This document shows, piece after piece, positions 23,018 to 64,000 of a stretch of DNA of 64,000 nucleotides; position 1 is the first letter of the stretch, and each line of letters begins with the position of its first letter. The position numbers and the translations under genes were made by a program. Origin of the DNA: Phoronis australis (Eukaryota > Animalia > Phoronida); the NCBI GenBank assembly GCA_002633005.1, contig NMRA01000292.1:1-64000 (forward strand), given 5' to 3'. The notes under the pieces are model-generated. The model was not told the origin of the DNA. It ran no database searches and saw only the letters and a program-made list of their open reading frames with translations.

Positions 23018-23103
23018 TACCTGGGAATACAACACTGAAATATATAGCATTCGAATTCCATAGAAATGAGGTAAGTTAAAAATTATCCAGTTCAGGACAG
23101 TGC

Positions 23104-33100: not shown

Positions 33101-33461
33101 CTCAGGCTGCTGATGTTATTGTTCTCTAGACGTTGAGACCCATCATAAACGCATTAGGGGCGATAATAGTACTGTAAATTTTTGTTTTGAAAGTTTGTAC
33201 CGGTAAATAGCATATTTGAACAGTTTGTGAAAAGCACGTGATTAGGTTTTTAAATTTTGAAAGTTGGACAAGAAATGTGACTTTTACAATCTAAAAGGTT
33301 TGTTAATGTTGCAATCTTAGGTTCCTCATTAATTCTGCTGGGTGTGCAATATAATTGGGTAAATTACCAAACCACTGGGCAGCAGTTGGATTTTGAGGTA
33401 AGCTAAGTGTCACCGTGCTATTTTGACATGTTCTACAAATCTATTGATGAAGTACACAATA
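30114..33461 (+). repeat. 1.67-kb near-identical tandem copy across a single N (probable uncollapsed haplotypes)
   Basis: 30114-31783 and 31785-33461 differ only by scattered SNPs and small indels; junction N at 31784. Confidence 0.85.
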
Positions 33462-41645: not shown

Positions 41646-44600
41646 CTATGATTTAGGCTTGAGACAATTTCCGTCAGGGTAGCATTTTTTAAACTTGCGC
41701 ACAACATCTGGTTCTAGCAGCCGCACACCATCCACTTGGTTGCCAAGAGTTATCCTACAAAACAGAAAATGAATATCTTCGTGAGATATAGAAACCTTAA
41801 TGCATTGAGGGAATGTTGCTAGGCAAATTCGTAATTGATGGACCTTGTCTTTGACATGGACAATTCTGTCTTTTACCCCAGTCCTCACTAAGTTTTTCTT
41901 CTCTCTATTCAACCTTCAGAATCAAAAAGAAACAAAACTGTCGTGAGGGAGGCTGACCACAACTGCCTATGAGCTATCCATCAACAACCACTGAGGGCAG
42001 GTGCTTGTTACATTCCTTAGTTTGTGTTTGGTGACTCAAGATATTAAGGTATTGAGTGAAACGAGAGAACCATGATTCAAAATATCTTTTCTGGCTCCTT
42101 CACAGACTATTTGTTCACGACTGACATCCAAATTGGGGGCGTAAGCACTGAGGCCCACACATACACATCTGTTTTGAATCATCCTTGTACAGTGCATTCC
42201 TCTCGGATGGTGGCAACGTTAGGAGTGTGCACCGCATAATTGGCACATAAATATTTTCATTTAGAAACTGATAATGTGAACTTGGGCCTACAGGGGCACC
42301 AAAACTGTGTCACAATCGCGCTTTATTTTGTCTTGAAAAATAAGTATTGCATTCAAATTCTAAAACAACAATAATGTAGAGCAGCTGATCAAAACTAATG
42401 TCAGTGACCAAAACAACATTAGTGATATGGGCTGTGTGAACATACAGATCCCAACTATGGATTGATGGGTTTGGGTAATTTATTTAAGCCAATCACTAAT
42501 CGCCAGGCAATGCACTTGGGTAAAAGATGAAATCGCACACAATAAATGAGGTCCTCCAAAAAATGAATCTGAAAAGAACAGAAAATACTAACAAGACCCA
42601 CACATCCTCCAAACTGGCCCATGTGAGGCCCTACAGGCTAATCAAACAATAGTCAGGTCTTTCAAAAGTGATCATAAGCAACCTAACTTCGCTGTACATA
42701 CTCACACCTTAGGTGAAATATCAAAACTTTTGACTCACCAGTTTGGCTGTACGTTATGTGGTCGTCCAAATAACTCCAGTTTGCGAGTACCTGGACTGAG
42801 CCTCTCAATCATTCCGTATATTTCATCAGGCTTATGACTTGTGGCTCTAACCTCCGCTACTAATACATCACAGTCCAGACCCCGATTCATATGTTTAGGA
42901 TTCCCTTTAACACCAATCTATAAAACACAGACTTTCACAATATAAAATGGTGCTAAAACATAAAATCAATCGATTGGCTGGAAAGCATTAAGAACTCTTA
43001 TTTTTTCTATCAAAGGACACATAAAAGACTGGTATTGTTTCTGATATGTAGAAACATCAGGCCAGCACCTACAAGTCGGCAAACTAAAATCATTTTATTT
43101 TTGTCAAATTGGAACCATAATACTGCTTGCCATACCAACTCAATTTGCAGGATATTTGTACATGTGCCATTTTCAAATTCGCAAATTTAGGGTCAGCCAA
43201 CCCCAATGAAGCATTTCCTCTAGTCACTGATGGATTCGATGTTTTAGTTGGTAAATGAAATAGAACCCTATTACCGTAAGAAATATGAGATCGATTTTAG
43301 CCAGCTAAACAGGGCGAAATACAGCTTAAATGTATGTGTGAGAACTCAGCAAAAGTTTGCCAACTTTTACTGAAGGTAATGCAGGTGTCATCACCATGAT
43401 GACCGGATGATAAGCACAGCAATGCATGCACTCCCCCTCGAAACAGTATGATGTTATATTTCAGAACACAAACGTAGCACAAATGAAAAAGTCCTAACTG
43501 GATAATAGGTGGATAATACTTCTTTAGAAGTGTGCTGCTTCTTAACCTTTTTTTAATCAATGACATACAAAAAGTTGTTATACAACCTACGGTGTTTTGT
43601 CCGAACAGATGTGATCTAAAATATCACGTTCGAAAGCAATCAAAAACTGCAGTCTAGCGTTATGAAAACCACTTAATATCACCAAGAAGCAATTCAATTG
43701 GAAGCTTTAAGATGAATTACATCGATCTGATTGAACAGGATAACGTAAACAGCGATTTACCAGACAGTGTTCCTTCCCGTGATTAATCCAATGTCCAGTA
43801 CGGCCCGTGCGAATTATTCTCTGTAACTGGTTAGTTTTTACCCATATCAGCTCGTCACATCTCTCATAACCCCACAGCTTTAGACATTCTCGACCAAGCT
43901 CCATTGCTCTGCATAGTAAAAGTAATGTTCATAACCCCACAGCTTTAGACATTCTCGACCAAGCTCCATTGCTCTGCATAGTAAAAGTAATGTTCATAAC
44001 CCCACAGCTTTAGACATTCCCGTCCAAGCTCCATTGCTCTGCATAGTAAAAGTAATGTTCAAAAGCACAATGTATTGTTGAAAGTCTAAACACCTCAACT
44101 TTTCAAGACGCCCTTTTGAGAGCCATATTGTTATTAAGGGGTACACATCGTCAAGTCAGACAACTCAACTGAAATTATAAAGTTGAAATAACACAAAGTT
44201 ATCATTATTACTGTAAAATCTCAAAATTTTCAAACAAAAATGCCCTTTTCCATTGTACAAGAGCTTCTAAGAATATTGTGAATACCTACAATACTTCAAA
44301 ATATTGTCTGTTGTCAGCTACGATTTTGAACTTGAGAATGGTAATGGATGACTTTGGCATTATTTTCATCAAAAGTAATGTCACCATTTTCAATTCGAAA
44401 CGCAGTAGCATTTAAAACAACATTGAAAGCTCTTGGAAAATGAAGCAAGGCATCTTTGTCCAAAATGGAAGAGATTTTACAGTACACTTAGTATTGTTTA
44501 ATATAACACTTTATTGGGCAATTCAAGGTTTTCGCTAAAATATGGGGACAGAAAAAATGAGCATACATTATATTGTTAATAAAGTGCAGACAAATGCCTC

Positions 44601-47600
44601 ATGTAAAAAGCAATTGCTGTGATCATTTCATAGTTCTGACAAATTTTCCAACTGAAGAATGTCCAAGACTATAAGCATCTAGCGAAAGTCCAGCAGAGTA
44701 ATGTCAATTTTGCAAGAAATCAGTGTTAATCAAATTGAATGTCATGTAAAGCATGTAAGACGCAGTTCTCTATATATTATTGAACTATGAAATGTAGACT
44801 AAACCATGTTCTTTAGGTGTTTATAAGTTAAATGAAGATTTGCTCATGCGGGTACCCTAAGCAAGCAACAATTTTCTCTGTAAGAGGTTAACCAAATCCA
44901 TCTGTGTCCTAGTAACAATTCTGTTATAGTTTAACCAAGTCTGACTGGGCCATAGTAACATTACTCTGTGATAGTTTAACCCAGTCCGTCTAGGCCATAG
45001 TAACATTACTCTGTGAGAGGTTAACCAAGTCTGTATGTGTTGTAGTAAAATTTCCCTACCTGCCTGTCACCCACAGAAATAAGTATCCTTCGTCCTGCAG
45101 AGTTGGTATGTTTAAAGTCCTCATCTCATCATCTGACATAGTGCCGTAAGGTAACTCCATATGAATATCCCAAGGGGGGTCAGCCATGATGATGGAGAAC
45201 TTGCCAAGAATGGTCATATCAAGGAGACGGACATCACAGCAGATCCACTGTCAGAAGAAAGTCGCATACATTAAAGAGATTACAAACTCTCTTTAAGTAA
45301 AAAAGTAACTAGAGGTAACTGGTCTCAAGTTGTTCCTTATGCACAACAGAGCAGATTTTTGGGCTTGAGGAGCATGGAAAATTAGTTATTGCTCAAGACC
45401 AGATTGCATTATTTTATACACTGCGCAAGGTCTCAAAAAGTGATGAACTTCAATTTTTTAGCACAAAAATCACTCGAAAATTTGAGTAAGGAACAAGTTG
45501 AGACTAGTTTTGAAGGAGAAAATTTTCTAAATCTTGATGGATGGCAGGTTTATAATTGATTTATGGGTGGATGTGGATCTGTAAGTTCAATGATGAAACA
45601 ACAGAAACAAAAATATGTAAAAGCTGTTGTTGCTGTTAAAAAACTGTGCCGTACTGATTTCGTCTTTTTTGCTTTGTTGGAAGTTTTGGCAAAAAATTCC
45701 AAGAAAACTACAATTAGGAAAACAACACTTATTATATGAAAATAAGTCTGAATTAATTTTGAAATTTTGTTGATTTTCCGCGAGAAGAAATTCCATAAAC
45801 TTCTTGAATTCCACTATACCATCCACTAACATGTAAAATACGATAACTGAAGTTGACTTTGGCTGTAAGATGTATAATGCAGGCAATAAAAATCACACAA
45901 TATAGTGATGTAAATAGTAGAAATTAAAGAGTTCCCACCATATGATGACCCTGTGTCTCAAAAAGGAATTTTATTATTACATCTTAACAGCTTTAATAAC
46001 CTTTAGTACACCTGTTGCTACGAAACAATCTAAAAATTTTAAAAATATATTTTTCTGTTACCGAGTTTGTACGCAATGGGTGGAAGACCGCCTCAGCCAT
46101 TGTTGTTTTACCAGTGCAATACTGAGGAGTTGTGAAGAAAGTCCGTGTGGAGCCGTCTTTTTCAGACATGAAAAGGTGCGTTTGTGGAAACTGTGGTAAC
46201 AACAACTTGACTGTGAACGTCTTAGTGTTCAAATTTCCTAAATACGTGAAAGTTGCACAAAAATGGCATCGGTTTGTCATGGGCGGCGCACCATAGGGGC
46301 CTGGGGTAGGGCTATAGCCCCCACTTTTTCAGGGCTAAGCNTTCCGCTTTTCGAGGTGAACGTCGTCTGCAACGCCGCGGTAAGAAAGGAATTTGCCGCA
46401 GAAATTTTATATCAAATCCGATTTTTTTACGCGGAAATATAAAAAAGCGGAAAGCACATTTGAAAAAAGCGGAAATCCGTGTTTCCGCGGAAAATTCCAA
46501 GCCCTGCAGAACACAAACGTAGAACAAATGAAAAAGTACAAACTGATAATAGGTGGATAATACTTCTTTAGAAGTGTGCTGCTTCTTAACCTGTTTTTAA
46601 TCAATGACATACAAAAAGTTATTATACAACCTACGGTGTTTTGTCCGAACAGATGTGATCTAAAATATCAGGTTCAAAAGCAATCAAAAACTACAGTCTA
46701 GCATTATGAAAACCACTTAATATCACTAAGAAGCAATTCAACTGGAAGCTTTAAGATGATTTACATCGATCTGATTGAACAGGATAATGTAAACAGCGAT
46801 TTACCAGACAGTGTTCCTTTCCGTGATTAATCCAGTGTCCAGTACGGCCCGTGCGAATTATTCTCTGTAACTGGTTAGTTTTTACCCATATCAGTTCGTC
46901 ACATCTCTCATAACCCCACAGCTTTAGACATTCTCGTCCAAGCTCCATTGCTCTGCATAGTAAAAGTAATGTTCAAAAGCACAATGTATTGTTGAAAGCC
47001 TAGTAAACACCTCAACTTTTCAAGACGCCCTTTTTTAGAGCCATGTTGTTAAAGGAGTACACATCGTCAAGTCAGGCAACTCAACTGAAATTATAAAGTT
47101 GAAATAGCACAAACTTATCATTATTACTGTAAAATCTCAAAATTTTCAAACAAAAATGCCCTTTTACATTGTTCAAGAGCTTCTAAGAATATTGTGAATA
47201 CATACAATACTTCAAAATATTGTCTGTTGTCAGCTACGATATAGAACTTGAGAATGATAATGGATGGCTTTGGCATTATTTTCATCAAAAGTAATGTCAC
47301 TATTTTCAATTTGAAACACAGTAGCATTTAAAACAACATTGAAAGCTCTTGTAAAATAAAACAGGGCATTTTTATCCAAAATGGAAGAGATTTTACAGTA
47401 CACTTAGTATTGTTTAATATAACACTTTACTGGGCAATTTAAGGTTTTTGGTAAAACATGTGGACGGAAAAATGAGCATAATATATTATGTTGTTAATAA
47501 AGTGAAGACAAATGCCTCATGTAAAAAGCAATTGCTGTGATCATTTCCTAGTTCTGACAAGTTTTCCAATTGAAGAATATCCCAGACTATAAGCATCTAG

Positions 47601-50600
47601 CAAAAGTCTAGCAGAGTAATGTCAATTTTGCAAGAAATCAGATGTTAATCAAATTGAATGTCATGTAAAGCATATAAGACACAGTTCTCTATATATTATT
47701 GAACTATGAAATGTAGACTAAACCATGTTCTTTAGGTGTTTATAAGTTAAATGAAGATTTGCTCATGCGGGTACCCTAAGCAAACAACAATTTTCTCTGT
47801 GAGAAGTTAACCGAATCCATCTGTGTCCTAGTAACAATTCTGTGATAGTTTAACCAAGTCTGACTGGGCCATAGTAACATTACTCTGTCATAGTTTAACC
47901 CAGTCCGTCTAGGCCGTAGTAACATTACTCTGTGAGAGGTTAACCAAGTCTGTATGTGTTACAGTAAAGTTTCCCACCTGCCTGTCACCCACAGAAATAA
48001 GTATCCTTCGTCCTGCAGAGTTGGTATGTTTAAAGTCCTCATCTCATCATCTGACATAGTGCCATAAGGTAACTCCATATGAATATCCCAAGGGGGGTCA
48101 GCCATGATGATGGAGAACTTGCCAAGAATGGTCATATCAAGGAGACGGACATCGCAGCAGATCCACTGTCAGAAGAAAGTCGCGTACATTAAAGAGATTA
48201 CAAACTCTCTTTAAGTAAAAAAATAACTAGAGGTAACTGGTCTCAACTTGTTCCTTATGCACAACAGAGCCGATTTTTGGGCTTGAGGAGCATGGAAAAT
48301 TAGTTATTGCTCAAGACCAGATTGCATTATTTTATACACTGCGCATGGTCTCAAAAAGTGATGAACTTCAATTTTTTAGCACAAAAACCACTCGAAAATT
48401 TAATTTGAGTAAAGAACAAGTTGAAACTAGTTTTGTAGGAGAAAATTTTCTAAATCTTGATGGATGGCAGGTTTATTATTGATTTATGGGTGGATGTGGA
48501 TCTGTAAGCTTCAATGATGAAACAACAGATTGTAAAAGCTGTTGTTGCTGTTAAAAAACTGTGCCATACTGATTTCATCTTTTTTGCTTTGTTGGAAGTT
48601 TTGGCAAAAAATTCCAAGAAAACTACAACAACACTTATTATATGAAAATAAGTCTGAATTAATTTTGAAATTTTGTTGATTTTCCACGAGAAGAAATTCC
48701 ATAAACTTCTTGAAAAGCCACTGTACCATCCACTAACATGTAAAATACGATAACTGAAGTTGACTTTGGCTGTAAGATGTATAATGCGAGAAATAAAAAT
48801 CACACAACATAGTGATGTAAATAGTAGAAATTACGTGGTTGATTGGGAACACCTCGGACCCATTATGTAATGTAGTGTGGCAAAATCTCACCAGGACACA
48901 ATGGCAGAGTAGTGAAGTTTTAATTTCTCGTTTTTTCCATAAAAGACATACAGCACCAAATCAATGCTTTTCAGTGTTCCAGCTCTGTACCACAGCCACC
49001 ACCAGGTTGTGTATTTCCAAAAAAATTGGCACTCACAACAATGCTATAAACCTTTGTGAAATGAATAAAATGGCAATTTTGATCTGACATCACTTTTGTC
49101 CGAAATAGGTGAGATTTTACACACTAATCCACTCATGAGCGAGAAGCAGCGAGATTACNNNNNNNNNNNNNNNNNNNNNNNNNNNNNNNNNNNNNNNNNN
49201 NNNNNNNNNNNNNNNNNNNNNNNNNNNNNNNNNNNNNNNNNNNNNNNNNNNNNNNNNNNNNNNNNNNNNNNNNNNNNNNNNNNNNNNNNNNNNNNNNNNN
49301 NNNNNNNNNNNNNNNNNNNNNNNNNNNNNNNNNNNNNNNNNNNNNNNNNNNNNNNNNNNNNNNNNNNNNNNNNNNNNNNNNNNNNNNNNNNNNNNNNNNN
49401 NNNNNNNNNNNNNNNNNNNNNNNNNNNNNNNNNNNNNNNNNNNNNNNNNNNNNNNNNNNNNNNNNNNNNNNNNNNNNNNNNNNNNNNNNNNNNNNNNNNN
49501 NNNNNNNNNNNNNNNNNNNNNNNNNNNNNNNNNNNNNNNNNNNNNNNNNNNNNNNNNNNNNNNNNNNNNNNNNNNNNNNNNNNNNNNNNNNNNNNNNNNN
49601 NNNNNNNNNNNNNNNNNNNNNNNNNNNNNNNNNNNNNNNNNNNNNNNNNNNNNNNNNNNNNNNNNNNNNNNNNNNNNNNNNNNNNNNNNNNNNNNNNNNN
49701 NNNNNNNNNNNNNNNNNNNNNNNNNNNNNNNNNNNNNNNNNNNNNNNNNNNNNNNNNNNNNNNNNNNNNNNNNNNNNNNNNNNNNNNNNNNNNNNNNNNN
49801 NNNNNNNNNNNNNNNNNNNNNNNNNNNNNNNNNNNNNNNNNNNNNNNNNNNNNNNNNNNNNATTAACAAATCTTACCTTACAAGTGTCCATGTGAAAACA
49901 TGTGTTGAGAAATGAACAGTCACCCAGAGTTTCTGGAAAACAATCACACACAATTTAGATACTACATAAAATACACAGGTCTGTAATGTCTTAAGATTCC
50001 TGATGATGACATTATGACATTTGAAAGCTCTGTTATAATTTTTCATTGTTTTGTATTGACAAAACACGCGTTTTGAAGTGATATGAACTAAAGAGAATAA
50101 TTAGAATGTAAGAATTATCAACAGAATTTTCATAAAACAAAATGTTAAATTTGTTTTGCAAGTAGATATTTAGTTAATACACAGGGCCAGTCATTATGAA
50201 ACCGAAGCAGCATAGCACCTACAAGGATGTAGATGTTGCAAATAACAGGGGGCGTGGCATTGTATTGACCCCTGTCCAGGCCAGAACATCTCACTTACCA
50301 TCAGTATGTTTGTGTATAATCTTTTTAAAGTGAAGCTTCTTGCATGCACCAGCCGAGTCATTAAGCTTGCCGCATTCTTCTCTCGTACCAAAGGGACAGA
50401 ACTCTCTCACTTGAGCGCCTGCAAAAGTTGGAAAGCAACAGCTGATACACACACACTGATCCTGTTTTGGACTGACAATGTCACCTCAGTCATTTTCGTT
50501 TGAATTCTTCTCGATTATCGATGGCGCCAATGAAAACAGATTAAGACTATGATGTTTTTTCAAGTGTGTATGATGGTAAAATTTAAAATTATACAAAAAT

Positions 50601-53600
50601 ATTATGAAACACTTCACTCTTAGCATAGTTTGTATTTGTCAGTAGCTATAAAACATCACAAAACTTGAGCAAACAGAAATATGGCAGTTATGGCGGACAT
50701 TGAAGAAGGTCTTCCAAACAGCATTTGTATTACAGACAGTGACTTAGTTAGCATGCATAGCAAATATAAACAATTATCTGTTTCTTATACACCTGCACTA
50801 AACAATTTTCAATGTCAAACAAACTCATTTCTTAATTTGACCATTCATGTCACCATTGAAAATTGGTCCTAACTTATATAACTTATTCAAGTGATCTCTA
50901 CGCTTAGAAACAAAACGACAGTGCGTCGCTGACGACTGAACTCAATATTAAGATGGAATTGACATGTTCGGCATTTTATGCGTTGATAGGAAATCAATAC
51001 AACTGAAAATAAGCAGATTTTTGAGACCAAACATTAGATGTAGTAACCAGTTGATGCACTTTCAGTTCTACTTCAACGTACCTCCTTGAGACTTGAATTT
51101 CTCCACAAGAGACTGTTCTTTTGCCGTTGGCTTTGTGAGTAACTCTAAGATTTCTTCATTCACTTTCTTACTTTCCTTTTCCTTAGCAGTCTGCATGGAT
51201 AATAAACTCTGGAAACAAATAAATGCAAATAACATTTCAATTAACGCATAAATGTAACCACCCGCTCCTCCTAAATGTTACATCAAGATGGCACACAGAG
51301 AAAGGGTGGTTTAGGCTGACACATTTCTTAAATAAAGCTTTTATACAACTGAAGAGATTGCATTAAACTGGAAAACCCCAAGACGTACGTTGGAAAATGT
51401 CACTTAAAAGACCAAAAGTAAACTCAAATAAACATGCAGGCATATATTTGGAAGTAACGAATATAAGTTCGGGTGAATCAATACTGTGGCTGGTGCTCAA
51501 ATTGAAACCAACAGAGTCAATACACAACATTGTCGCTGTTTGACTGTCCCCACATGTAGGAGTTAATTGTTGAAACTTGTGCTTTCTGAGTCTATTTTGT
51601 ATGAAACTGGGAAAAATTTTAGGATTCAACCATGCATTTTCCCCAAACATGTATCTTTAGAAAATGTTCCTTACTGATGCCCTGTGAGCATAACTAAAAG
51701 TTAGCCTGTCAGCAGAATATTCTGGTTTAACAATTACCACACATCAAATACTATTTTTCATTGATGCATTAAATTTTCTCCACACCAAAGGAAGTTGGGA
51801 TACGTGATAAAACATATGAGTAACCCAAGCAGACCACTCGTAAGCAATGCTAAATTTCGTGGCAATTATCAGCTTGTCAAATGTTGGAAATGTTGACAGA
51901 GAGATAAACTATAATTTTGTAAAACCAATTTTGTGTAATCACTATGTCATCTGCCTTTCAGAGCCATGACATAATAAGTTAATACACACACTCTGATAAA
52001 TGTTCACGGCTGAATTTTCAACAATATAATTTTTTAATGCATAGTTTCTGATGTAACTGGCTCAATACCCAACCTTCGAATATCTCAACTACTCAAACAA
52101 ATACTACATTTATTTAATATTTTGTTCATTGTTCATAAATAATGCAGTGGGACAGTGACCAACTATAAACAGATTATAGTACTAAGTACCTCTATCAAAC
52201 TGTCATCACCATGCTTTGCAGATTTTGTGACTGGTTCATCAGAGGTCCTGCAATATATTAATTTCAATGTGATAAAAATGACAAAGCAATTTACACACAA
52301 ACACATAATATTATATGTACGGGCTTAGCACTTGATGTAAATCAAAATTTGCAAGTGAAGTGATATAGACAACTGAACGAAAAAATGATATCCTTGTTTC
52401 TAGTACAGGCCAAAAGTTAAATCTGCCTGAAAATGTATAGATATCTATATATATCTATATTTATATATATTTATATTTATATAGATCTATATATTTGAAA
52501 ACACGATTAGCTAATAACTAAATGATGAGCAGGGCAAGATGAAAAGTTGCCCGTATGGGTTCATTAATAGACGCATACAAATCATGAACACCTATGGGCC
52601 ATTGAATGTCAGATGTAGCCTCCAACAACGCATTTTGCACAGAATCAAAAGGGAACAAATCAATTCCAGATCTCTTACTGTGAATCGAAACCTGACCTCA
52701 CCCAACAAAATGATAAACAATACACTGAAAAACGAGTGGGCTTAATTTAATGAATTTTATAAAAGTAGGCCACAAGCCACTCAGGAGCCAGAACTTGTGG
52801 GTAAATGTGCTTATCAAGCAGCCAAAATACATGATCAATATTGTGGAATAAAAGTGAAATTGCAGTGTGTGAGAAAAAAGACAGTTTTAATTCTAAAAAG
52901 TTGTCTAGTTCCATCAACTACAGGGCTTGCCAAAATTTGTGAAGAAAATTTATTTAAGAAAATCCAATAATTACACAAAAAGCTGAAACATTTAGCTACC
53001 AAATGTCATCAATAATTGAATGAGACATTCCTTAACTTTTTTTGAAAAACTAAAACATTCTAAATTTTACCGACAACATTCTTACTTTTCTGCAACCTTG
53101 ACACCATCCTGATTATCGCTGTCACTGACTGCAGCAAGTTTTGCATGATCTACAGATGTCACTAGTGTAGAGGATTTTTTGCCTGATGGATGATCTTTCT
53201 TCTCAATGCTAAGTAGACAAAATTGCACAATATTAAGGTTGTAAAAACCCCTCTTCCATCACAAAAATCAACCCTTTGATTTAGACCACCTACCATTATG
53301 AAATTGATCTCAGATTGGATGGATTTTCTGGGCCTGGAAAGAGTCAACATTTCGTTATTGCTTGAGACCTGACACCTCACGGTGTGTTATTTTACTCACC
53401 AAACATGGTCTCTAGCAAAAACCAACTGTCAGTTCTTTGCAAGATCAGAAATCACTTCTCAGTTGAGTAAGGAACAAGTTGAGATCAATTTTATAGCGGT
53501 AAGTGAATTGAATCACAAGCTAGTTTCTTCGACAGAACCAGGATTTATAGCCGCATCAAATACTGCCTGCATAGCATGCTATATGCAAATCCGTTTAACA

Positions 53601-56600
53601 AACACGAAGTAGGACAGCGGGATATGTTAAATGTCTGGCATTTTAAAATTGTTACTGCAAGTCATTTTTAGCCATGCCAAACATTGACTGACTGACAAAC
53701 TTAAAATTACAGAAATAAATGACAAAATTTGCAATATGAATGTGATACGCGATATTAAGACACATGCCACTTCCAACAAACAGATTAAAAAACATGTAGA
53801 AGTCATCTAAAACAAGGCACATAGTCACAATTACCGTAATCGTTCGGGTTAACGCCCTGGGCGGTTAAATTGGCGAACCCAAAAAATCGGGGGTGGGCGG
53901 TTAACCGGACATGGGCGCTTAAACGTGAAATTTCAAGAAATCCAGGGTGGGCGGTTAACCGAACATGGGCGCTTATTACGACAGGCAACCGCCCTGGGCG
54001 GTTAATCTTACCTNTGGTTTAACAATTAGCACACATCAAATACTATTTTTCATTGATGCATTAAATTTTCTCCACACCAAAGGAAGTTGGGATACGTGAT
54101 AAAACATATGAGTAACCCAAGCAGACCAGTCGTAAGCAATGCTAAGTTCCGTGGCAATTATCAGCTTGTCAAATGTTGGAAACGTTGACAGAGAGATAAA
54201 CCATAATTTCGTAAAACCAATTCTGTGTAATCACTATGTCATCTGCCTTTGAGAGCCATGACATAACAAGTTAATACACACACTCTGATAAATGTTCACG
54301 GCTGAATTTTCAACAATATATTTTTTTAATGCATAGTTTCTGATGTAACTAGCTCAATACCCAACCTTCGAATATCTCAACTACTCAAACAAATACTACA
54401 TTTTAATATTTTGTTCATTGTTCATAAATAATGCAGTGGGACAGTAACCAACTATAAACAGATTACAGTACTAAGTACCTCTATCAAACTGTCATCACCA
54501 TGCTTTGCAGATTTTGTGACTGGTTCATCAGAGGTCCTGCAATATATTAAATTCAACGTGATAAAGATGACAAAGCAATTTACACACAAACACATAATAT
54601 TATATGTACGTGCTTAGCACTTGATGTAAATCAAAATTTGCAACGGAAGTGATATAGACAACTCAACGAAAAAAATGTCCTTATTTCTAGAACAGGCCAA
54701 AAGTTAAATCTGCCTGAAAATCTATAGATGTCTTTAACATATTTGAAAACACGATTAGCTAATAACTAAATGCAGGGCAAGATGAAAAGTTGCCCGTATA
54801 GATTCATTAATAGACGCATACAAATCATGAACACCTATGGGCCATTGAATGTCAGATGTAGCTTCCAACAACGCATTTTCCACAGAATCAAAAGGGAAAA
54901 AATCAATTCCAGATCTCTTACTTTGAATCGAAACCTGACCTCACCCAACAAAATGATAAACAATACACTGAAAAACGAGTGGGCTTAATTTAATGAGTTT
55001 TATGAAAGTAGGCCACAAGCCACTCAGGAGCCAGAACTTGTGGGTAAATGTGCTTATCAAGCAGCCAAAATACATGATCAATATTGTGGAATAAAAGTGA
55101 AGTTCCAGTGTGTGAGAAAAAAAGACAGTTTTAATTTTAAAGAGTTGTCTAGTTCCATCAGCTATAGGGCTTGCCAAAATTTGTGAAGAAAATTTATTTA
55201 AGAAAATCCAATAATTACACAAAAAGCTGAAACATTTAGCTACCAAATGTCATCAATAATTGAATGAGCCATTCCTTAACTTTTTTGAAAAACTAAAATA
55301 TTCTAAATTTTACCGACAACATTCTTACTTTTCTGCAACCTTGACACCATCCTGATTATCGCTGTCACTGACTGCAGCAAGTTTTGCATGATCCACAGAT
55401 GTCACTAGTGTAGAGGATTTTTTGCCTGATGGATGATCTTTCTTCTCAATGCTAAGTAGACAAAACTGCACAATATTAAGGTTGCAAAAACCCCTCTTCC
55501 ATCACAAAAATCAACCCTTTGATTTAGACCACTTACCATTATGAAATTGATCTCAGATTGGATGGATTTTCTGCACCTGGAAAGAGTCAATATTTCGTTA
55601 TTGCTCGAGACCTGACACCTCACGGTGTGTTATTTTACTCACCAAACATGGTCTCTAGCAAAAACGAACTGTCAGTTCTTTGCAAGATCAGAAATCACTT
55701 CTCAGTTGAGTAAGGAACAAGTTGAGATTAATTTTATAGCGGTAAGTGAACTGAATCACAAGCTAGTTTCTTCGACAGAACCAGGATTTATAGCCGCATC
55801 AAATACTGCATGCTATATGTAAATCCGTTTAACAAACACGAAGTAGGAAAGCGGGATATGTTAAATGTCTGGCATTTTAAAATTGTTACTGCAAGTCATT
55901 TTTAGCCATGCCAAACATTGACTGACTGACAAACTTAAAATTACAGAAATAAATGACCAAATTTGCAATATGAATGTGATACGCGATATTAAGACACATG
56001 CCACTTCCAACAAACTGATTACAAAACCTGTAGAAGTCATCTAAAACAAGGCACATAGTCACAATTACATTGTGATTTCCACTAAACTGAAATTTTTGCA
56101 ATCTTTTATTGGTGACAGTGACATAATAACAACATTGCTAGCAATCGGAGTATGTGAATTGAGTATGAGACCAGTATTGTTTACTTTGTTTATTTTCTTA
56201 CTACCCTGAGCTTGGAACAATTATTGTACAACCTCAAACCTGATGTGAGACAGCACTGCCATCTATTGCAGAGAATATCTATTAAGGTCAGAATGTTGCA
56301 CTCAGCACAACAGGTCTAAATTTAAGTTAGGAAGATAGTAATCACAGGCAGTCATAAGTCCTACTTTCAGTTGAGAAAAATGTGTGAGAGTAAAGTACCT
56401 TTATTCAGGATTAAACCTNNNNNNNNNNNNNNNNNNATTTTGAAGTTAATCGATGACCCGTTACAATAATTTGTTACTGGTATCATAATTCACATTGCTA
56501 AACCGCGGTCTCTGAGGCCGTCGTTGCACTCAATGTTATCATCGATCTTAATCTAAAAGGTCGGGAATTCGCGTTTCCTATTAGCACAGGGCGGTAATCA

Positions 56601-59045
56601 CCAATCGTCAAAAGTAGGGGATGGGCGCTTAACCGAGAGGTGGGCGCTTAATTGGAAATCTTCAAAAATAGCAGGGGGGCGGTTAACCGAGCAGTGGGCG
56701 GTTAAATCGAAAATCCACCTAAAGTAGGGGTGGGCGGTTAACTGAGCATGGGCGTTAACCCGAACGATTACGGTACATTGTGATTTCCACTAAACTGAAA
56801 TTTTTGCAATCCGTTATTGGTGACAGTGACATAATAACAACATTGCAAGCAATCGGAGTATGTAAATTGAGTATGAGACCAGTATTGTTTACTTTGTTTA
56901 TTTTCTTACTACCCTGAGCTTGGAACAATTATTGTACAACCTCAAACCTGATGTGAGACATCACTGCCATCTATTGCAGAGAATATCTATTAAGGTCAGA
57001 ATGTTGCACTCAGCACAACAGGTCTAAATTTAAGTTAGGAAGATAGTAATCACAGGCAGTCATAAGTCCTACTTTCAGTTGAGAAAAATGTGTGAGAGTA
57101 AAGTACCTTTATTCAGGATTAAACCTGTTCAACATAACAGTACTGTTCAACTAGGCCCGGATAAGAAAGAGAAAATATTGGAAATCTGACTAACAAAACG
57201 GTAACCAAAAAAATAAAATATAACAATAAAAGGTTAACACTAAAACACGAAGAAAGGAGTTAGAGACTATACAAATAAATATTACACATGTACCTAGATT
57301 TAAAAATACCTGTGGGACATCAGACTCGAGATAGTTCAACAGCATGGTACCAGAGTAGAAGAATACATGTTTGCCAAAATTAGTCCTTAAAAGCCCTACA
57401 GAACATATAGCAAGAAGTGACATACACAATCAATGTCTGAGCGGCAAACTTCTCCAGTAGTTCCTCCACATCCGCCAGCGGTACGTCCACATTCAACAGC
57501 TTACTGACACTCTTAACCAAAACACTGACGTCGAGAGGCAGATCAAGACCCAGGTCCATCAGACAAGATAAGAGTTTCTTTTCAAAATCTCGACCAAGGT
57601 GAACTGCCTTATTAACAATGACAACAGAGGACGCTTCAGTAGGAGGAGAGGTACCACTGGTAGGTTGGACAGCTGAAGAGGCATTTGTTTCTGGAACCAA
57701 ACATTTCACAAGCTGCAAGCTGAGTATGCATTTAGGGATACCGTTACTATTAATACCACTACAGAAATCAGGTGAAACAGCTATTAAATCTTGAAACATA
57801 TCAAGTCATTGCATAATAATTATTTCAGGCAGTGATAAGCTCTGCATGGTATGTTCCAGAGTGAAAACCATTTTTAAAGTACTTTTGAGAAATAAAGGTG
57901 AACCATTTACAGTGGTGTTTTGACAGTCAAAATCGATGTTTATCAAAGTTATGACTGCATAACTTTGTTCACAGCTCAGGACATTTCTCCTGGGCACTAG
58001 GGAAAGAAATCTAAATTAAGGTTAATTGCATAATGAGTAATTCAATTAGGCTAAACAAATCTGCGATAGAAGATTAATTGACTACCCCAATGAACAGAGC
58101 TCAGGTACTCGATAAAATGGTTCAGTACTTTGAGCCATTTTGTGTGCACCCATGAACATGATTTGTCAAAAGCAACCCAGCCGAACAATATGCTGTCCAA
58201 TGGCTTTTACAACTGAAAAGGTTCGCAGTGTCTTTTTCCATTTAGTTTTGGTTTTTGGCTCACAATTTCATTTTGTTTTTTCAACTTCAATCAAAATACA
58301 ATTAAAAAATTTCTAAAATGCAAGTGAAATTTGCTACATGATCTCCTACAATTTCACAAGAACCTATCAGTAAGTCAGTTCTTCTACAGCAAATCAATCG
58401 AAGTACAGTCCTTTGAATGCCTTCAATTTTGTCTATGTTCTTCATCTTGATCCAATCATTATCAGAATCTTCCAATAATAATGTTACTTCATACATTTAC
58501 CATGCATGTTCATCCAAAATGACCTCAATCACACTGTTCGACTCAAAACAGTGACTAGTTCCGAAGCAGTACTTCAATTAAAATAAAAGTCAGTCAGCTT
58601 CTGGTTTCTCGTTTTTGGGAGACTTAATTCCCAACTGTACTTTGCAAGGTTTAAGGATGGTAACAGTAATGGTAGGACTCACAATTGATTTAGGCCAGAG
58701 CAGAAGCATGAACTTTAAAATTAGCGCGTAAGTACATAACGACACATCTATCCAACATTTCGGTTTATTACTCTAAACCATTCTCGAGGAAACAGTTTAC
58801 AGACTCAAAACAGGCGACACAGGTAGAGAAGAGACTGTACAGGCACACATCAAAATGGTAGTGTTCAAAAGCATGTTTCCAAAAGGAGACACCAGCCTAT
58901 TCTTACCGGTACCAGGCCCAGCACAAGCTTCACCCGTGATGTCAGCCACCAAACCTGCTCTTTCTTTCCTGCGCTTCAGTAACTTCTCTCGCATAGAACC
59001 TCGCTTAGTTTTGAGTGACTGGATTTCATTCCAAGTATCTGACAT
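41646..59045 (-). CDS. METTL3: N6-adenosine mRNA methyltransferase catalytic subunit (MT-A70 family)
   Basis: Exons (minus): 59045-58907, 57690-57426, 53208-53086 (copy 55451-55329), 52247-52190, 51208-51082, 50418-50299, 49932-49877, [missing exon, probably in N gap 49159-49861], 45247-45060 (copy 48165-47978), 43908-43761 (copy 46952-46805), 42917-42739, 41754-41646. Motifs [13 protein letters not shown] fingers ([11 protein letters not shown]...CKKLHF; [16 protein letters not shown]), catalytic [71 protein letters not shown]. Minus-strand AATAAA at 41399-41404. Confidence 0.96.
43863..44061 (-). repeat. 65-bp tandem triplication spanning a METTL3 intron/exon boundary
   Basis: CATAACCCCACAGCTTTAGACATT...GCTCTGCATAGTAAAAGTAATGTT at 43865, 43930 and 43995; single copy in the duplicate region (~46909-46975). 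Confidence 0.95.
44875..45052 (+). repeat. ~45-bp minisatellite, about four copies, abutting a METTL3 donor site (second copy ~47795-47970)
   Basis: CTGT(G/A/T)A(G/T)AG(G/T)TTAACC(A/C)A(G/A)TC...TAGTAACA repeats. Confidence 0.75.
46322..46506 (-). mobile_element. One end of a hAT-like element present in only one of the two duplicated copies
   Basis: Ends ...GGAAAATTCCAAGCCCTG (CAGGGCTT terminus, GCGGAAA subterminal repeats) directly before CAGAACACAAACG. The other copy (43452-43473) has unrelated sequence at this point. Confidence 0.6.
51724..57126 (-). repeat. Duplicated METTL3 segments (probable haplotype artefact)
   Basis: 51724-53833 versus 54015-56067 across the N at 54014, and 56068-56418 versus 56776-57126 across the short N gap. 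Confidence 0.85.
53834..56773. mobile_element. TA-target Tc1/mariner (pogo/Tc2-like) element, both ends visible (53834-54013 and ~56438-56773), middle broken by the assembly
   Basis: TA|CCGTAATCGTTCGGGTTAACGCCC ... GGGCGTTAACCCGAACGATTACGG|TA, with GGGCGGTTAA/GGGCGCTTAA subterminal repeats. Empty site CACAATTACATTG at 56060-56072. Confidence 0.85.
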
Positions 59046-59267
59046 CGTTGGGACTTGTTTTGTGTAAGATCTTCCTTTACATCGGTCTTTCACTTTCCAA
59101 CTATTCCTGCAGAACAAAAACATGTTATGCTCAATAATAAGGATGTGTACTTACAAAGCCGTCTTGGAACACAACTGTATTACATCTTGACTGTATAATA
59201 AGACTAATGCAATCAAATTTTATGACGTTTTTCACCATTTCTAAATGATGACACATTCTTCCAATAC

Positions 59268-60959
59268 AAACCCGACCTGGTCTCGATTGTTCCATAGTCA
59301 AAACACTTAGGTGCGATTTTTGGGGCACTCAGAAAAGGTCATTATTGCTTATGACATTTAAAGTTCTACATGGCACGCCTGTCATCAGGTGTGTTATTCT
59401 ATTCACTGCGCATGGTCTCGAGCAATAATGAACTGTCAGTTCTTTGCACAATACACATCTGATTAATAGCAAGGAAAAAGTTGAGTGGTGTGTGGTTTAA
59501 ATGGAAAGTTAGTTCCTTTGACGGAATGTAGGTTTACTGGTGGTTTAAGGCTATCATTTTGGAACATTTGGAATTAAGCTGTGCATTTTTCTGAAATGTT
59601 GATAAATAATTTAAGGATCAAATTTTTGATAGTGCAGCTGATGAAAGGCGATGTCAAAATGGCATTAAAAATCAGAGCTATTGCCCTCTTTGTCAGTCAC
59701 GTGTTAACCATTGACAATTAGAGCAGCTTAGGTCGTCGAGATCAAAATTCTATATCTCACCACTCCTTTTCAAAGAGGGCACCACCTGCAATGAAATAAT
59801 TGTTGTGTTTTTGCAAAAAAAAACATGTTACAACATTAGTTTAGACGAAGTCGACAGCATGTCTACTACAATTGTGCACATGTACAACAGAAGCAAAGCT
59901 GAACAACTTGAAGGCAATACCTCCAACAATTCATGGGCCATGGGAGCTAGGCGCAGCACTGAAATAAATGGGTGGCTACAGCCACAGGCGTCCTCAGCTT
60001 CTGATCGTCCCCAATACACTATATATAGTAGTATTATGTATAGTGTATTGGGGACGATCAGAAGTTGAGGACGCCTGTGGCTACAGCCACTANAAACCCG
60101 ACCTGGTCTCGATTGTTCCATAGTCAAAACACTTAGGTGCGATTTTTGGGGCACTCAGAAAAGGTCATTATTGCTTATGACATTTAAAGTTCTACATGGC
60201 ACGCCTGTCATCAGGTGTGTTATTTCATTCACTGCGCATGGTCTCAAGCAATAATGAACTGTCAGTTCTTTGCACAATACACATCTGATTAAAAGCAAGG
60301 AAAAAGTTGAGTGGTGTGTAGTGTGTGGTTTAAATGGAAAGTTAGTTCCTTTGACGGAATGTAGGTTTAGTGGTGGTTTAAGGCTATCATTTTGGAACAT
60401 TTGGAAGCTGTGCATTTTTCTGGAATGTTGATAAATAATTTAAGGATCAGATTTTTGATAGTGCAGCTGATGAAAGGCGAAGTCAAAATGGCATTAAAAA
60501 TCAGAGCTATTGCCCTCTTTGTCAGTCACGTGTTAACCATAGACAATTAGAGCAGCTTAGGTTGTCGAGATCAAAATTCTATATCTCACCACTCCTTTTC
60601 AAAGAGGGCACCACCTGCAATGAAATAATTGTTGTTTTTTGCAAAAAAAACATCTTACAACATTAGTTTAGACAAAGTCGACAGCATATCTACTACAAAA
60701 TTACAAAACGCTGGCGTAGTACGAATCAGGAATGAGTGCACATATACAACAGAAGCAAAGCTGAACAACTTGAACTGAAGGCAATACCTCCAACAATTCA
60801 TGGGCCATGGGAGCTAGGCGCAGCACTGAAACAAATGGGTGGCTACAGCCACAGGCGTCCTCAGCTTCTGATCGTCCCCAATACACTATATATAGTAGTA
60901 TTATGTATAGTGTATTGGGGACGATCAGAAGTTGAGGACGCCTGTGGCTACGGCCACTA
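59268..60959 (+). repeat. ~0.83-kb duplicate across a single N (probable haplotype artefact)
   Basis: 59268-60092 versus 60094-60959; N at 60093. Confidence 0.85.
60850..60946. mobile_element. 97-bp near-perfect palindromic mini-MITE (second copy 59983-60079)
   Basis: CACAGGCGTCCTCAGCTTCTGATCGTCCCCAATACACTATA and its inverse, flanked by 8-bp TSD GCTAC(A/G)GC. Confidence 0.9.
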
Positions 60960-61173: not shown

Positions 61174-61482
61174 TGTGCGTGAACTTGGAATCCTGCTTAA
61201 TCTCCTTTAGGCCTACCGCAACTTGTGTCGCTGAACCGGAGGAATATATGAATGGCTAAATCGATTAGTGTTTGGTGAAACTGATCGCCCGTAGTTGAAA
61301 AGGTTGGGTAAAATTGACATTATTGTATTCAAATGTAACGTGATTTAGTGCAAAGCAAATTTTTATGAACATGAACATGATTATTTGAGTGAACTTGTCA
61401 AGTTGCCTCGCGTATTCTGAGTTCACGCAACACTCACTTCCGCTTAATCTTGAGATTACGCAGGATTCCAAGTTCACGTATA
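61174..61482. mobile_element. ~310-bp element with ~28-bp TIRs in the METTL3/PDCD6 promoter region
   Basis: TGTGCGTGAACTTGGAATCCTGCTTAATCTC ... GAGATTACGCAGGATTCCAAGTTCACGTATA. Interior block TTTGGTGAAACTGATCGCCCGTAGTTGAAAAGGTTGGGTAAAATT aligns to the reverse complement of ~28654-28702. Confidence 0.75.
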
Positions 61483-61541
61483 GCATCCCGGCTTCTGCTT
61501 GATTCAGGGGAGGACTCCAGGGGGCGCTGCAGAGTTGCAAA

Positions 61542-63965
61542 ATGGCGTATCCACAACCACAAGTCGATCTGTGGGGTATTTTTTCAAGGTGAGGTATATA
61601 AGTTGTTCTTCATAGTTCCTCAATTCCTAAGATCCTAGTTAAACCTCATTCCTGGAAGACGTTATGGGCTTGGTGAAGTATCTTGAAAACCAGTCGCCCT
61701 CTAAATAACATGCTGAGATGGCTTGCGTGATCAGAAATTACTTTCCGTTCGCGACCGGTGTAGCATAGCACACTTCCGCTTTTGAATCGCCAAAAACGAC
61801 TGACTGTAGAGCCTCTAGGCAATGACCATCGCCTCTGTTGGCCCGAAGCAGAGGCGATGTAGAGGCTATAGGCGCTCTGTACGCCGGAAGCTTTTCGGCG
61901 AATTATGCCTCGCACCGACTAAACCATCAAAGTCACGTTGTTACAAATACCTTTTGCGCATAGAGGAACACCTTAGGAGGTTGTCGATGTGTTTAATTCC
62001 TTCCAACTCGAACAAATACTCCCGTTATGAAACTTTTTCTTCGAGCAGTCCCTATTTCAGTTCCCAAAATCGTGAACTCAACTTTTTTATACTGCGCACG
62101 CTCCAATTCATGACCTCAATCTTTAAATAGGCCAAAGGTGAGCCATTGCGGTTTTGGCAGTCAAATGTTCGTTTCCAAAATGCCACCACTTATACTTGTC
62201 TTTAATTGGCGTTACTTGAAACTGATTGTATTTCAATGAATCATTGTTTGTATTTGATAAAAACAAATGCTGTTGATATGACATTTAATAGTCTTTTTGC
62301 ACATATTTGACATTTTAATGTTTAACAACACGGCAAATGCACGGCTGGTTCCCGGCAGCACGTACGCGAAGGGCGGGAACTTCAGCTTTCAAAGTTCGCC
62401 GGTAGGTCCGCAACTTCTGACCTTCGGCCTGGTTAAAAAAATGAAAAAGTTGAGTTCACGATTTTGGGAACTGAAATAGGGACTGCTCGAAGAAAAAGTT
62501 TCATAACGGGAGTATTTGTTCGAGTTGGAAGGAATTAAACACATCGACAACCTCCTAAGGTGTTCCTCTATGCGCAAAAGGTATTTGTAACAACGTGACT
62601 TTGATGGTTTAGTCGGTGCGAGGTATAATTCGCCGAAAAGCTTCCGGCGTACAGAGCGCCTATAGCCTCTACATCGCCTCTGCTTCGGGCCAACAGAGGC
62701 GATGGTCATTGCCTATAGAGCCTCCTGTCCTTGGTAGAAAGCTCGTTATTAATTCGTTTTCAACTGATTTCAGTACCCAGTAAAATTTTGAAAACCAGCT
62801 ACAGTAGTACAGTAATTGTCTCACTTTCGAGCCGTTTCAGTTCGGATTTTTAGATAATTTATTACACTATTACAGCACTTAACTTTGAAATAATAAGTAA
62901 ATTGTTGCTTATCTTACACACAGGCGTCCTCAGCTTCTGATCGTCCCCAATACACTATATATAATACTACAAGGTATGACACTCCCGACTAGAAATTCCA
63001 CGGGTGCTTCACTTCAGCCGTCCATAGCAAACATAAAACTCAATAAATTTACACAAAACAGGGGCTCAACAAACCATGAAGAATTGTTCTTTCTCCCAAT
63101 ACCATTCACGGTGTCCTGTTACGGCGACTTCGTAAGAAATTCGCAGTCAAAGAACAAAAATGTTCACAAAAAGCCCCCACACATGTCCTCCCTGGGCCCG
63201 TCGAGGTCAAGGACAGTACGGAAATTGCCGGTGAGTTACGGAAGTAGCGACATCGTGACTTTACGCGACAAAGCGGCAATTTCCGTAGTGTATTGGGGAC
63301 GATCAGAAGCTGAGGACGCCTGTGATCGTACACAATGACAGTGTTGCTGGTTTATCTTTGCACCAGTTCTGAAAGTTGTGGAGCAGCTGGTTGATATGTG
63401 AATCACTGAAGGAATTTTGGTTGAGTTAATCTGCCTGGCCTGACCTAGTTATATGCCCTAGATAAACAGTAATTTACGAAATATATAAATTTTTAATCAA
63501 AGCAAAAACTTTATGTGGTGATATTAGAAGTGACCAAGAGCACATTTTGCTTATTCTGTTTGACTATAACGTCAAGAATTTAGATGTAAATGCAAACCAA
63601 TTTATATTAGTTGGGGATCACTCCAACTAGTGCGAACAAAAAATGTTTTATTATCAATATAGTACAAGTAATTTCATGGAAAACAATTAAGAATAATAAA
63701 AAAATGTAAGTATTTACTGCAGTCATAATTTTTGAGAGGTATGGTGCCTTTTTGCAACTCTCTTGATATTCATGTGTACGCCTTATTCCTCAGTGTCGAC
63801 AGGGACCGGAGCGGGGCTATTTCAGCCATGGAGCTAGGCCAAGCATTATCAAATGGTGAGTGTGGAATGGTTTTGTTTAATTCGTGTGATCACATTTCTT
63901 CAGGATAGACAAGGATAGAAGCGGCAGCATTTCGGGCCATGAACTTCAGCAAGCGCTGTCTAATG
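61542..63965 (+). CDS. PDCD6: Programmed cell death protein 6 / ALG-2 (penta-EF-hand), 5' part; continues beyond the window
   Basis: Exon 1 61542-61588 (MAYPQPQVDLWGIFS, donor GTGAGG, phase 2). Two alternative 62-nt second exons: 63794-63855 (VDRDRSGAISAMELGQALSNG) and 63904-63965 (IDKDRSGSISGHELQQALSNG). Both match the ALG-2 EF1 pattern LWxxFxxVDKDRSGxISxxELQQALSNG. Confidence 0.85.
61816..62715. mobile_element. 900-bp Mutator/MULE-like non-autonomous foldback element in PDCD6 intron 1
   Basis: Nearly identical ~270-bp TIRs (TAGGCAATGACCATC ... GATGGTCATTGCCTA) and a perfect 9-bp TSD TAGAGCCTC at 61807-61815 and 62716-62724. Confidence 0.92.
62919..63324. mobile_element. 406-bp MITE with CA...TG ends and 8-bp TSD (hAT- or P-like), same TIR as the 97-bp palindromes
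   Basis: TIR CACAGGCGTCCTCAGCTTCTGATCGTCCCCAATACACTA at both ends; flanks ATCTTACA / ATCGTACA. Confidence 0.88.
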
Positions 63966-64000
63966 GTAAGAAGAGGTTGGAAGAGGTTGTGGCTATTAAA

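What the first reader, a model, noticed from the sequence alone, without database searches (positions are those of the whole stretch)
63794..63965. Tandem duplicated, probably mutually exclusive EF-hand-1 exons in PDCD6/ALG-2
Seen: two 62-nt exons, each with a pyrimidine tract, CAG acceptor and strong donor (GTGAGT, GTAAGA), identical phases (2 to 1), separated by only 48 nt. They encode (S)VDRDRSGAISAMELGQALSNG and (R)IDKDRSGSISGHELQQALSNG. Synonymous sites are heavily diverged while the D-x-D-x-S-G-x-I-x-x-x-E calcium loop is intact in both, so the duplication is old, selected, and not an assembly copy. Including both exons shifts the frame (62 is not a multiple of 3), and the 48-nt spacer may be too short to splice. 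Established: EF1 is one of the functional Ca2+-binding hands of ALG-2; the mammalian isoform switch I know of is the GF122 micro-deletion, not an EF1 exon swap. Inference: the gene switches between two Ca2+-sensor variants by mutually exclusive splicing. I am not aware of this being described but cannot search the literature.
Basis: partly seen in the sequence, partly recalled or inferred. Interest (0 to 1): 0.85.

Follow-up and report, generated by a model that had tools for sequence, protein, structure and literature searches.

The report
Either-or calcium-loop exons in ALG-2
The gene for the calcium sensor ALG-2 in this animal carries two tandem copies of the exon for its first calcium-binding loop and puts one or the other into each mRNA at roughly equal rates, a swap also seen in gene models of molluscs, ribbon worms and a brachiopod, so it is likely an old way of making two differently tuned sensors.

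Summary
Confirmed. Two 62-nt EF-hand-1 exons (63794-63855, 63904-63965), 48 nt apart, 14 of 20 codons giving the same residue, pS 1.0, pN 0.22. In three raw RNA-seq runs and one contig set both exons join the same exon 1 and exon 3; about 106 of 189 laid reads sit on A and 83 on B, with no A-B joint listed and no spacer coverage. Database isoforms differing only in this exon occur in 7 of 8 multi-isoform lophotrochozoan sets and 0 of 11 others; one metagenome contig has three copies. Exclusion is likely steric (intron under 50 nt), backed by an immediate stop codon. All calcium ligands are identical, so the isoforms likely differ in tuning, not on/off binding. No regulated switch was seen (p=0.83). 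Nine paper searches found no description and the scan's notes hold no PDCD6 finding, but gene models already carry the isoforms and EF-hand exon swaps are a known class.

The parts
61542..61588 (+). Coding part of exon 1 of PDCD6/ALG-2 (47 nt, ends in phase 2 with AG; donor GTGAGG)
   Evidence: reads end here and continue into A or B
61589..63793 (+). Intron 1 up to the acceptor of exon A (2205 nt)
63794..63855 (+). Exon 2A, EF-hand 1 loop and F helix; gives Ser34, Val35, Gly49 (human numbering)
   Evidence: Peak depth 33/35/38 in X2/X3/X4; PDB hit ALG-2 35-54; synonymous A>G variant at 63845 in X1-X3
63856..63903 (+). 48-nt GT-AG spacer intron between A and B; never seen spliced on its own
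   Evidence: No joint listed, depth 0 in 63861-63900
63877..63881 (+). Only YTRAY branch-point-like motif of the spacer; predicted branch A at 63880, 25 nt from the donor of A and 23 nt from the acceptor of B
   Evidence: consensus match, not mapped; same 23-nt spacing in the 56-nt spacer of L011
63904..63965 (+). Exon 2B, EF-hand 1 loop and F helix; gives Arg34, Ile35, Gly45, His46; its TAG at 63906-63908 would stop translation if A and B were joined
   Evidence: Peak depth 27/24/32; PDB hit ALG-2 35-54; stop at codon 38 on double inclusion
63966..64000 (+). Start of intron 2 (donor GTAAGA); exon 3 lies beyond the window and is known only from read overhangs

Best explanation
The ALG-2/PDCD6 gene has two tandem copies of its EF-hand-1 exon, and its mRNAs carry one or the other between the same exon 1 and exon 3 at about 56:44, likely because the 48-nt intron between them is too short to splice, giving two equal-length proteins predicted to bind calcium at EF1 but to differ in tuning. 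Shown: exon pair, both splice paths, no joint inclusion at this depth, purifying selection on both. Inferred: (1) any branch point in a 48-nt intron lies under the ~50-nt donor-to-branch limit, so the donor of A and the acceptor of B cannot be used together; a rare A+B or no-exon product would shift frame and be removed by nonsense-mediated decay; (2) the duplication is shared with molluscs and nemerteans, exon B belonging to an Ile35/Gly-or-Cys45 class; (3) since D36, D38, S40, G41, S44 and E47 are the same in both, the isoforms differ at non-ligand sites (residue 34 of the membrane-binding basic patch, residue 35 of target Pocket 3, loop positions 7, 10, 11 and helix residue 49) and so in Ca2+ set-point, target preference or membrane recruitment, with A/A, A/B and B/B dimers possible where both are made in one cell.
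For: Reads: loose ends before A 26/28/30 and before B 23/15/25 all give the exon-1 tail; behind A 31/33/36 and behind B 27/24/32 all give the same exon-3 head (agreement 0.91-1.0); peak depths on A plus B equal the reads laid in each run (60, 59, 70); no joints; X1 has both bubbles at depth 59 and 57. From exon 1, X2 sends 17 reads to A and 16 to B, each group at agreement 1.0. Isoforms differing only within this exon: Lineus (3 variants), Tubulanus, Lingula, Octopus bimaculoides, O. vulgaris/sinensis, Liolophura, Sinanodonta. Contig behind L011/L010: exon 1, two 62-nt copies 56 nt apart, a third about 5.7 kb on, no exon 1 or 3 between. Ile35 occurs in 9 and Gly/Cys45 in 8 of 171 distinct EF1 spans, both together in 6, and exon B has both. 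AU tests reject within-species pairs as sisters (p 0.013, 0.036, 0.028). The <50-nt steric class and frameshift class: PMC5740500, PMC7969005 (passages). Pocket 3 includes V35, L48, A51, L52, S53 (PMC4346919); R34/K37/R39 bind membranes (PMC10907313).
Against: Joints under 3 reads a run are not listed, and steady-state RNA cannot separate steric block from decay. The branch point is a consensus guess and this animal's shortest spliceable intron is unknown. The tree has 20 columns and no starred branch among the 18 variants (B class 85/80); Lingula, Sinanodonta and the L011/L010 animal show no Ile35 variant, and Mercenaria's three listed isoforms share one EF1. The basic-patch difference is not consistent: 3 versus 2 basic residues in 5 of 8 animals, and the Ile35 class has the full set here but lacks residue 37 elsewhere. 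No sample difference in usage (p=0.83). No biochemical test.
Confidence: 0.75

Rival explanations
1. Exclusivity is only apparent: the 48-nt intron can be spliced, A+B mRNAs are made, and nonsense-mediated decay removes them.
For: 62 is not a multiple of 3 and A+B meets a stop at codon 38; PMC5740500 reports 60% of human clusters as frame-shifting against 9% steric; some invertebrates splice introns near 50 nt (recalled).
Against: No A-B joint listed in three runs, though decay targets usually leave traces (general knowledge); a second animal keeps an equally short spacer, 56 nt, with the same branch-motif spacing. In that animal the third copy lies 5.7 kb away, where the steric rule cannot apply, so decay or another control must act there.
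Confidence: 0.2
2. The two isoforms are functionally equivalent; the duplicate persists because the short intron made it harmless and both halves of the output must stay functional.
For: Identical calcium ligands, near 50:50 use, no sample difference; which class carries the full basic patch differs between species; many animals do with one exon (0 of 11 non-lophotrochozoan isoform sets vary here).
Against: Synonymous sites are saturated yet both copies are intact and used; class-specific residues recur across phyla, which a neutral duplicate would be unlikely to keep.
Confidence: 0.2
3. The exon was duplicated several times independently in different lineages, with convergent residues, rather than once in a common ancestor.
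For: Copy number varies (2 or 3); three animals lack an Ile35 variant; other ALG-2 exons (EF4 region, last exon) also show swapped variants in scattered lineages; tree support is weak.
Against: For 16 of 18 variants the best match is strictly in another species and for the other 2 it is a tie; three within-species pairs are rejected as sisters (groups chosen after seeing the tree, 20 columns only).
Confidence: 0.25
4. A and B are alleles or paralog fragments set side by side by mis-assembly.
For: The window holds several tandem near-identical blocks of 92-98% identity; the ratio is near 50:50; no DNA reads were laid across the spacer.
Against: A and B are only 60% identical with unrelated flanks; all four runs carry both with identical exon 1 and exon 3 ends; an allelic variant (63845) segregates within A; an independent contig has the same tandem layout.
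Confidence: 0.02

Closest known systems
Mammalian ALG-2 isoform delta-GF122 (PMC5037681; passages read)
   Same: Same gene; alternative splicing alters Ca2+ affinity and target binding.
   Different: Two-residue deletion by an alternative donor near EF3, not a swap of duplicated EF1 exons; the passages shown name no EF1 variant.
Mutually exclusive Ca2+-site exons of alpha-actinin, CaV2 channels and OGDH 4a/4b (PMC9177970, PMC7969005; passages read)
   Same: Duplicated exons for a Ca2+-binding site, short intervening intron, donor-to-branch distance under about 50 nt.
   Different: In OGDH one exon carries the Ca2+ site and the other is Ca2+-insensitive; here both loops keep every ligand. Here the whole intron is under 50 nt rather than having a distant branch point. 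The host is a penta-EF-hand adaptor.
Database isoform sets of PDCD6 in Lineus longissimus (XP_064640855-861), Tubulanus polymorphus (XP_074646116/7), Lingula anatina, Octopus spp. (XP_014773297/8), Liolophura sinensis (XP_064610972/3), Sinanodonta woodiana (KAL3860583/4)
   Same: Equal-length isoforms differing only in the span of this exon; exon B is 18 of 20 identical to Liolophura X2.
   Different: These are automated gene models with no paper found on them; I saw their proteins, not their DNA.

Membership tests
Mutually exclusive exons from tandem duplication | Homologous, equal-length, same-phase exons in tandem with own splice sites | tested here: met
Mutually exclusive exons from tandem duplication | Each joined to the same upstream and downstream exon in mRNA | tested here: met
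   Loose-end consensus in 4 of 4 runs; exon-1 side
Mutually exclusive exons from tandem duplication | Not included together | tested here: met
   No joint listed among 189 laid reads; listing needs 3 reads a run
Mutually exclusive exons from tandem duplication | Not both skipped, no third alternative | tested here: inconclusive
   In X2, 17 + 16 reads of depth about 35 go to A or B at agreement 1.0; the B row of X3 and both rows of X4 were among 44 rows not shown; DNA past 64000 not available
Steric-exclusion class of MXE | Donor-to-branch-point distance under about 50 nt | tested here: met
   Whole intron is 48 nt; motif at nt 25; threshold from PMC5740500, PMC7969005 (vertebrate work); branch point not mapped
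Steric-exclusion class of MXE | No joint inclusion when NMD is blocked | not testable with these tools
   Needs an experiment
Docking/selector RNA-structure class of MXE | Competing base pairing between intron elements | tested here: inconclusive
   No duplex with intron 1 or local fold better than shuffles (4-27 of 30 and 28 of 50 shuffles as good); intron 2 is outside the window
U2/U12 incompatibility class of MXE | One exon flanked by U12-type sites | tested here: not met
   All donors are ordinary GT(A/G)AG, by eye
ALG-2/PDCD6 (group I penta-EF-hand) | EF1 and EF1-EF2 loop closest to ALG-2 | tested here: met
   Best PDB hits; exon-3 overhang read by hand gives the G-T-W-x-P-F-N-P-E-T-V loop seen in the homologues
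ALG-2/PDCD6 (group I penta-EF-hand) | Five EF-hands and EF5 dimerisation | not testable with these tools
   The rest of the gene is outside the window and no genome is held
Canonical EF-hand loop | D1, D3, S5, G6, hydrophobic 8, S/T9, E12 | tested here: met
   Both exons; Pfam EF-hand hits below the curated cut-off for these 20-residue pieces
Canonical EF-hand loop | Measured Ca2+ binding | not testable with these tools
   No data

The most novel reading that the evidence does not exclude
Invertebrate ALG-2 is a modular sensor: an EF1 exon swap at least as old as the mollusc-nemertean split, combined with separate swaps of the EF4-region exon and the last (EF5, dimerising) exon, yields a combinatorial set of ALG-2 homo- and heterodimers with different Ca2+ thresholds and different ER-exit-site versus ESCRT/membrane-repair preference, chosen by cell type.
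Probability: 0.3. Interest if true: 0.72.

Novelty: new member of a known kind. Interest (0 to 1): 0.5.

Why it matters
ALG-2 links Ca2+ to COPII export and ESCRT membrane repair and is treated as a nearly single-form protein known from mammals. This exon carries the EF1 Ca2+ loop, part of the Sec31A pocket and the membrane-binding basic patch, so a conserved natural swap gives matched protein pairs that differ at a handful of non-ligand residues: a ready test of how an EF-hand with fixed ligands is tuned, and of whether Ca2+, target and membrane binding can be adjusted apart. It also adds a clean, very short-intron case of exon exclusion. It is not a new mechanism, and gene models already hold the isoforms.

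Tried and rejected
No genome is held, so exon 3, the intron-size distribution and the lineage of this animal were not determined; no protein among the 287 fetched has its exon-3 Met variant. The run search with the SH2B-like exon listed no holder on record as RNA; the three raw runs came by species label and the lay itself is the evidence. The homologue search from the ant protein returned mostly insects, whose X1/X2 differ at the start of EF2, not EF1. Of 22 metagenome loci (about 14 distinct genes after merging near-identical ones and the shared contig) only the L011/L010 contig shows more than one copy; many others have short flanks, and only L008 was seen to hold exon 1, one exon 2 and exon 3. 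Alignment A2 misplaced exon 1 and was not used. RNA-structure control was looked for and not found. An on/off Ca2+ switch as in OGDH was rejected because ligands are identical. A single conserved membrane-patch difference was rejected as the general function because its direction varies. Separate first exons or genes were rejected by the reads. PMC10696053 concerns ALIX, not PDCD6. No structure or complex prediction was run: it would not resolve differences this small. Earlier scan notes gave no PDCD6 case.

Full report
Observation. The window holds exon 1 of a PDCD6/ALG-2 gene (coding 61542-61588) and two 62-nt exons, A (63794-63855) and B (63904-63965), each with CAG acceptor and GT donor, 48 nt apart. 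They share 37 of 62 nt. Of 20 whole codons 5 are identical, 9 differ silently and 6 change the residue; pS is 1.0 and pN 0.22, so the duplication is old and both copies are constrained. Both match ALG-2 residues 35-54 best in the PDB. No other copy of this form lies in the window. The window ends 35 nt after B and no genome is held.

Splicing. A run search with a neighbouring exon returned one contig set (X1, RNA by guess) and three raw stranded RNA-seq runs of the same species label from one study; about 18-19% of each raw run was read. On 63701-64000, 60, 59 and 70 reads were laid. Peak depth was 33/35/38 on A and 27/24/32 on B, summing to the laid count in each run, with zero depth in the spacer and flanks and no joint listed (threshold 3 reads a run). 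Overhangs before A (26/28/30 reads) and before B (23/15/25) are the exon-1 tail; overhangs behind A (31/33/36) and behind B (27/24/32) are one and the same exon-3 head; agreement is 1.0 except 0.91 (X2, before A) and 0.99 (X4, behind B). X1 holds both paths at depth 59 and 57. From exon 1, X2 sends 17 reads to A and 16 to B and X3 sends 22 to A, each at agreement 1.0; the remaining rows were among 44 not shown. Pooled A share is about 106 of 189 (56%; mates can overlap, so reads are not independent), with no difference between runs (p=0.83). Mutually exclusive use is therefore shown; a regulated switch is not.

Other animals. I read 23 protein clusters. Among lophotrochozoan sets with two or more isoforms of one gene, 7 of 8 have isoforms that differ within the span of this exon: Lineus (three variants), Tubulanus, Lingula, Octopus bimaculoides, O. 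vulgaris/sinensis, Liolophura and Sinanodonta; Mercenaria's three do not. None of 11 other sets does (Wasmannia, Rhodnius, three Branchiostoma species, Amphiura, Acanthaster, Rhopilema, Hydractinia, Hydra, Oscarella; one B. lanceolatum pair from different assemblies differs by a single residue). Listings are capped at 15 members, clusters were chosen for carrying isoform labels, no vertebrate cluster was read, and I saw proteins, not genomic DNA. A pattern scan of metagenome contigs gave 22 loci, about 14 distinct genes. One contig (L011, L010) has exon 1, two 62-nt copies 56 nt apart and a third about 5.7 kb further on, with no exon 1 or 3 between. Exon B carries Ile35 and Gly45; these occur in 9 and 8 (Gly/Cys) of 171 distinct EF1 spans, together in 6, all from nemerteans and molluscs. 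In an 18-variant tree B groups with one variant each of Liolophura, Octopus, Lineus and Tubulanus at 85/80 (not starred), and AU tests reject the window, Octopus and Liolophura pairs as within-species sisters (p 0.013, 0.036, 0.028). With 20 columns, and groups named after an earlier tree, this favours but does not prove one old duplication. That these phyla split over 500 million years ago is recalled. The lineage of the window's animal was not determined; a lophotrochozoan is my inference from exon B.

Mechanism of exclusion. The whole spacer is 48 nt, so any branch point is under the roughly 50-nt donor-to-branch limit (PMC5740500, PMC7969005; passages; vertebrate data). Its only YTRAY motif puts the branch A 25 nt from the donor and 23 nt from the acceptor; the 56-nt spacer of L011 has one at 33 and 23 nt. 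Joining A to B would meet a stop at codon 38, so decay is a backup and cannot be separated from steric block with these data. No competing RNA structure stood out (intron 2 not available).

Function. D36, D38, S40, G41, S44 and E47 are the same in A and B, so both should bind Ca2+ (inference); E47A abolishes Sec31A binding in human ALG-2 (PMC4346919). The isoforms differ at 34 (Ser/Arg, through the split codon), 35, 37, 42, 45, 46 and 49. V35 lines Pocket 3 and R34/K37/R39 form the membrane-binding patch needed for ER-exit-site recruitment (PMC10907313). A has two and B three of these basic residues. A 3-versus-2 difference recurs in 5 of 8 animals, but not always in the same class, and is absent in Sinanodonta and the L011/L010 animal, so I hold 'tuning' as likely and its exact nature as open.

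Comparison and novelty. It is a member of the tandem-duplicated mutually exclusive exon class and works like the Ca2+-site exon pairs of alpha-actinin, CaV2 and OGDH (PMC9177970, PMC7969005; passages), but with both loops intact. The ALG-2 review passages name only delta-GF122 (PMC5037681). Nine searches found no paper on an EF1 exon swap in ALG-2; apart from the seven papers whose passages I read I saw listings only, the library lacks most subscription papers, and I opened no supplements, where genome-wide exon catalogues could list this gene. The scan's earlier notes have no PDCD6 finding but several other EF-hand exon pairs (unchecked).

Verdict. Real, expressed, conserved, apparently undescribed in papers but present in automated gene models: new member of a known kind, interest 0.5.

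Noticed in passing
Proteins P0154/P0227/P0228, P0213/P0232, P0131/P0004, P0132/P0253, P0187/P0255, P0244/P0137, P0216/P0214, P0220/P0182: ALG-2 isoforms of other animals swap further homologous segments: the EF4-region exon (Mercenaria three variants, Branchiostoma two) and the last, EF5 exon (Rhopilema, Hydractinia, Hydra, Amphiura, Lineus, Lingula).
   Followed up: partly
L011:3006-3065 (-), L011:2888-2947 (-), L010:609-668 (-): Another animal has three EF1 exons in one gene, two 56 nt apart and one about 5.7 kb downstream.
   Followed up: yes
Proteins P0002/P0009, P0013, P0043, P0058: Hymenopteran PDCD6 long isoforms carry a duplicated start of EF2 (a repeated GMFD motif with a 10-20 residue insert).
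   Followed up: no
window 63794 acceptor, run X2: Overhang agreement is 0.91, so a few reads may come from another first exon; alternative first exons appear in Lineus X6, Branchiostoma X3, Acanthaster X1 and Rhodnius X2 models.
   Followed up: no
window 61813-62090 and 62441-62718: 278-bp inverted repeat, 99% identical, inside intron 1, with related copies near 27597-28047; likely a non-autonomous DNA transposon.
   Followed up: no
window 16888-19276, 30114-33461, 43994-48833, 51723-56068, 59261-60959: Several head-to-tail blocks 92-98% identical, possibly both haplotypes assembled in tandem; 728 N bases, with the N run near 49160-49860.
   Followed up: no
window 22100-23137 (-), 9042-9434 (-), 19594-20514 (+), 49954-59150 (-): SH2B-like gene (Phe_ZIP and SH2 hits), a reverse-transcriptase remnant (RVT_1), and a gene head-to-head with PDCD6 that I recall as METTL3-like (its first ORF gave no Pfam hit).
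   Followed up: partly
window 61370-61485: Repeat just upstream of the start codon that draws many divergent reads from elsewhere.
   Followed up: no
Protein P0135: Labelled as a gastropod protein but clusters with sponge ALG-2; possibly contamination in that assembly.
   Followed up: no
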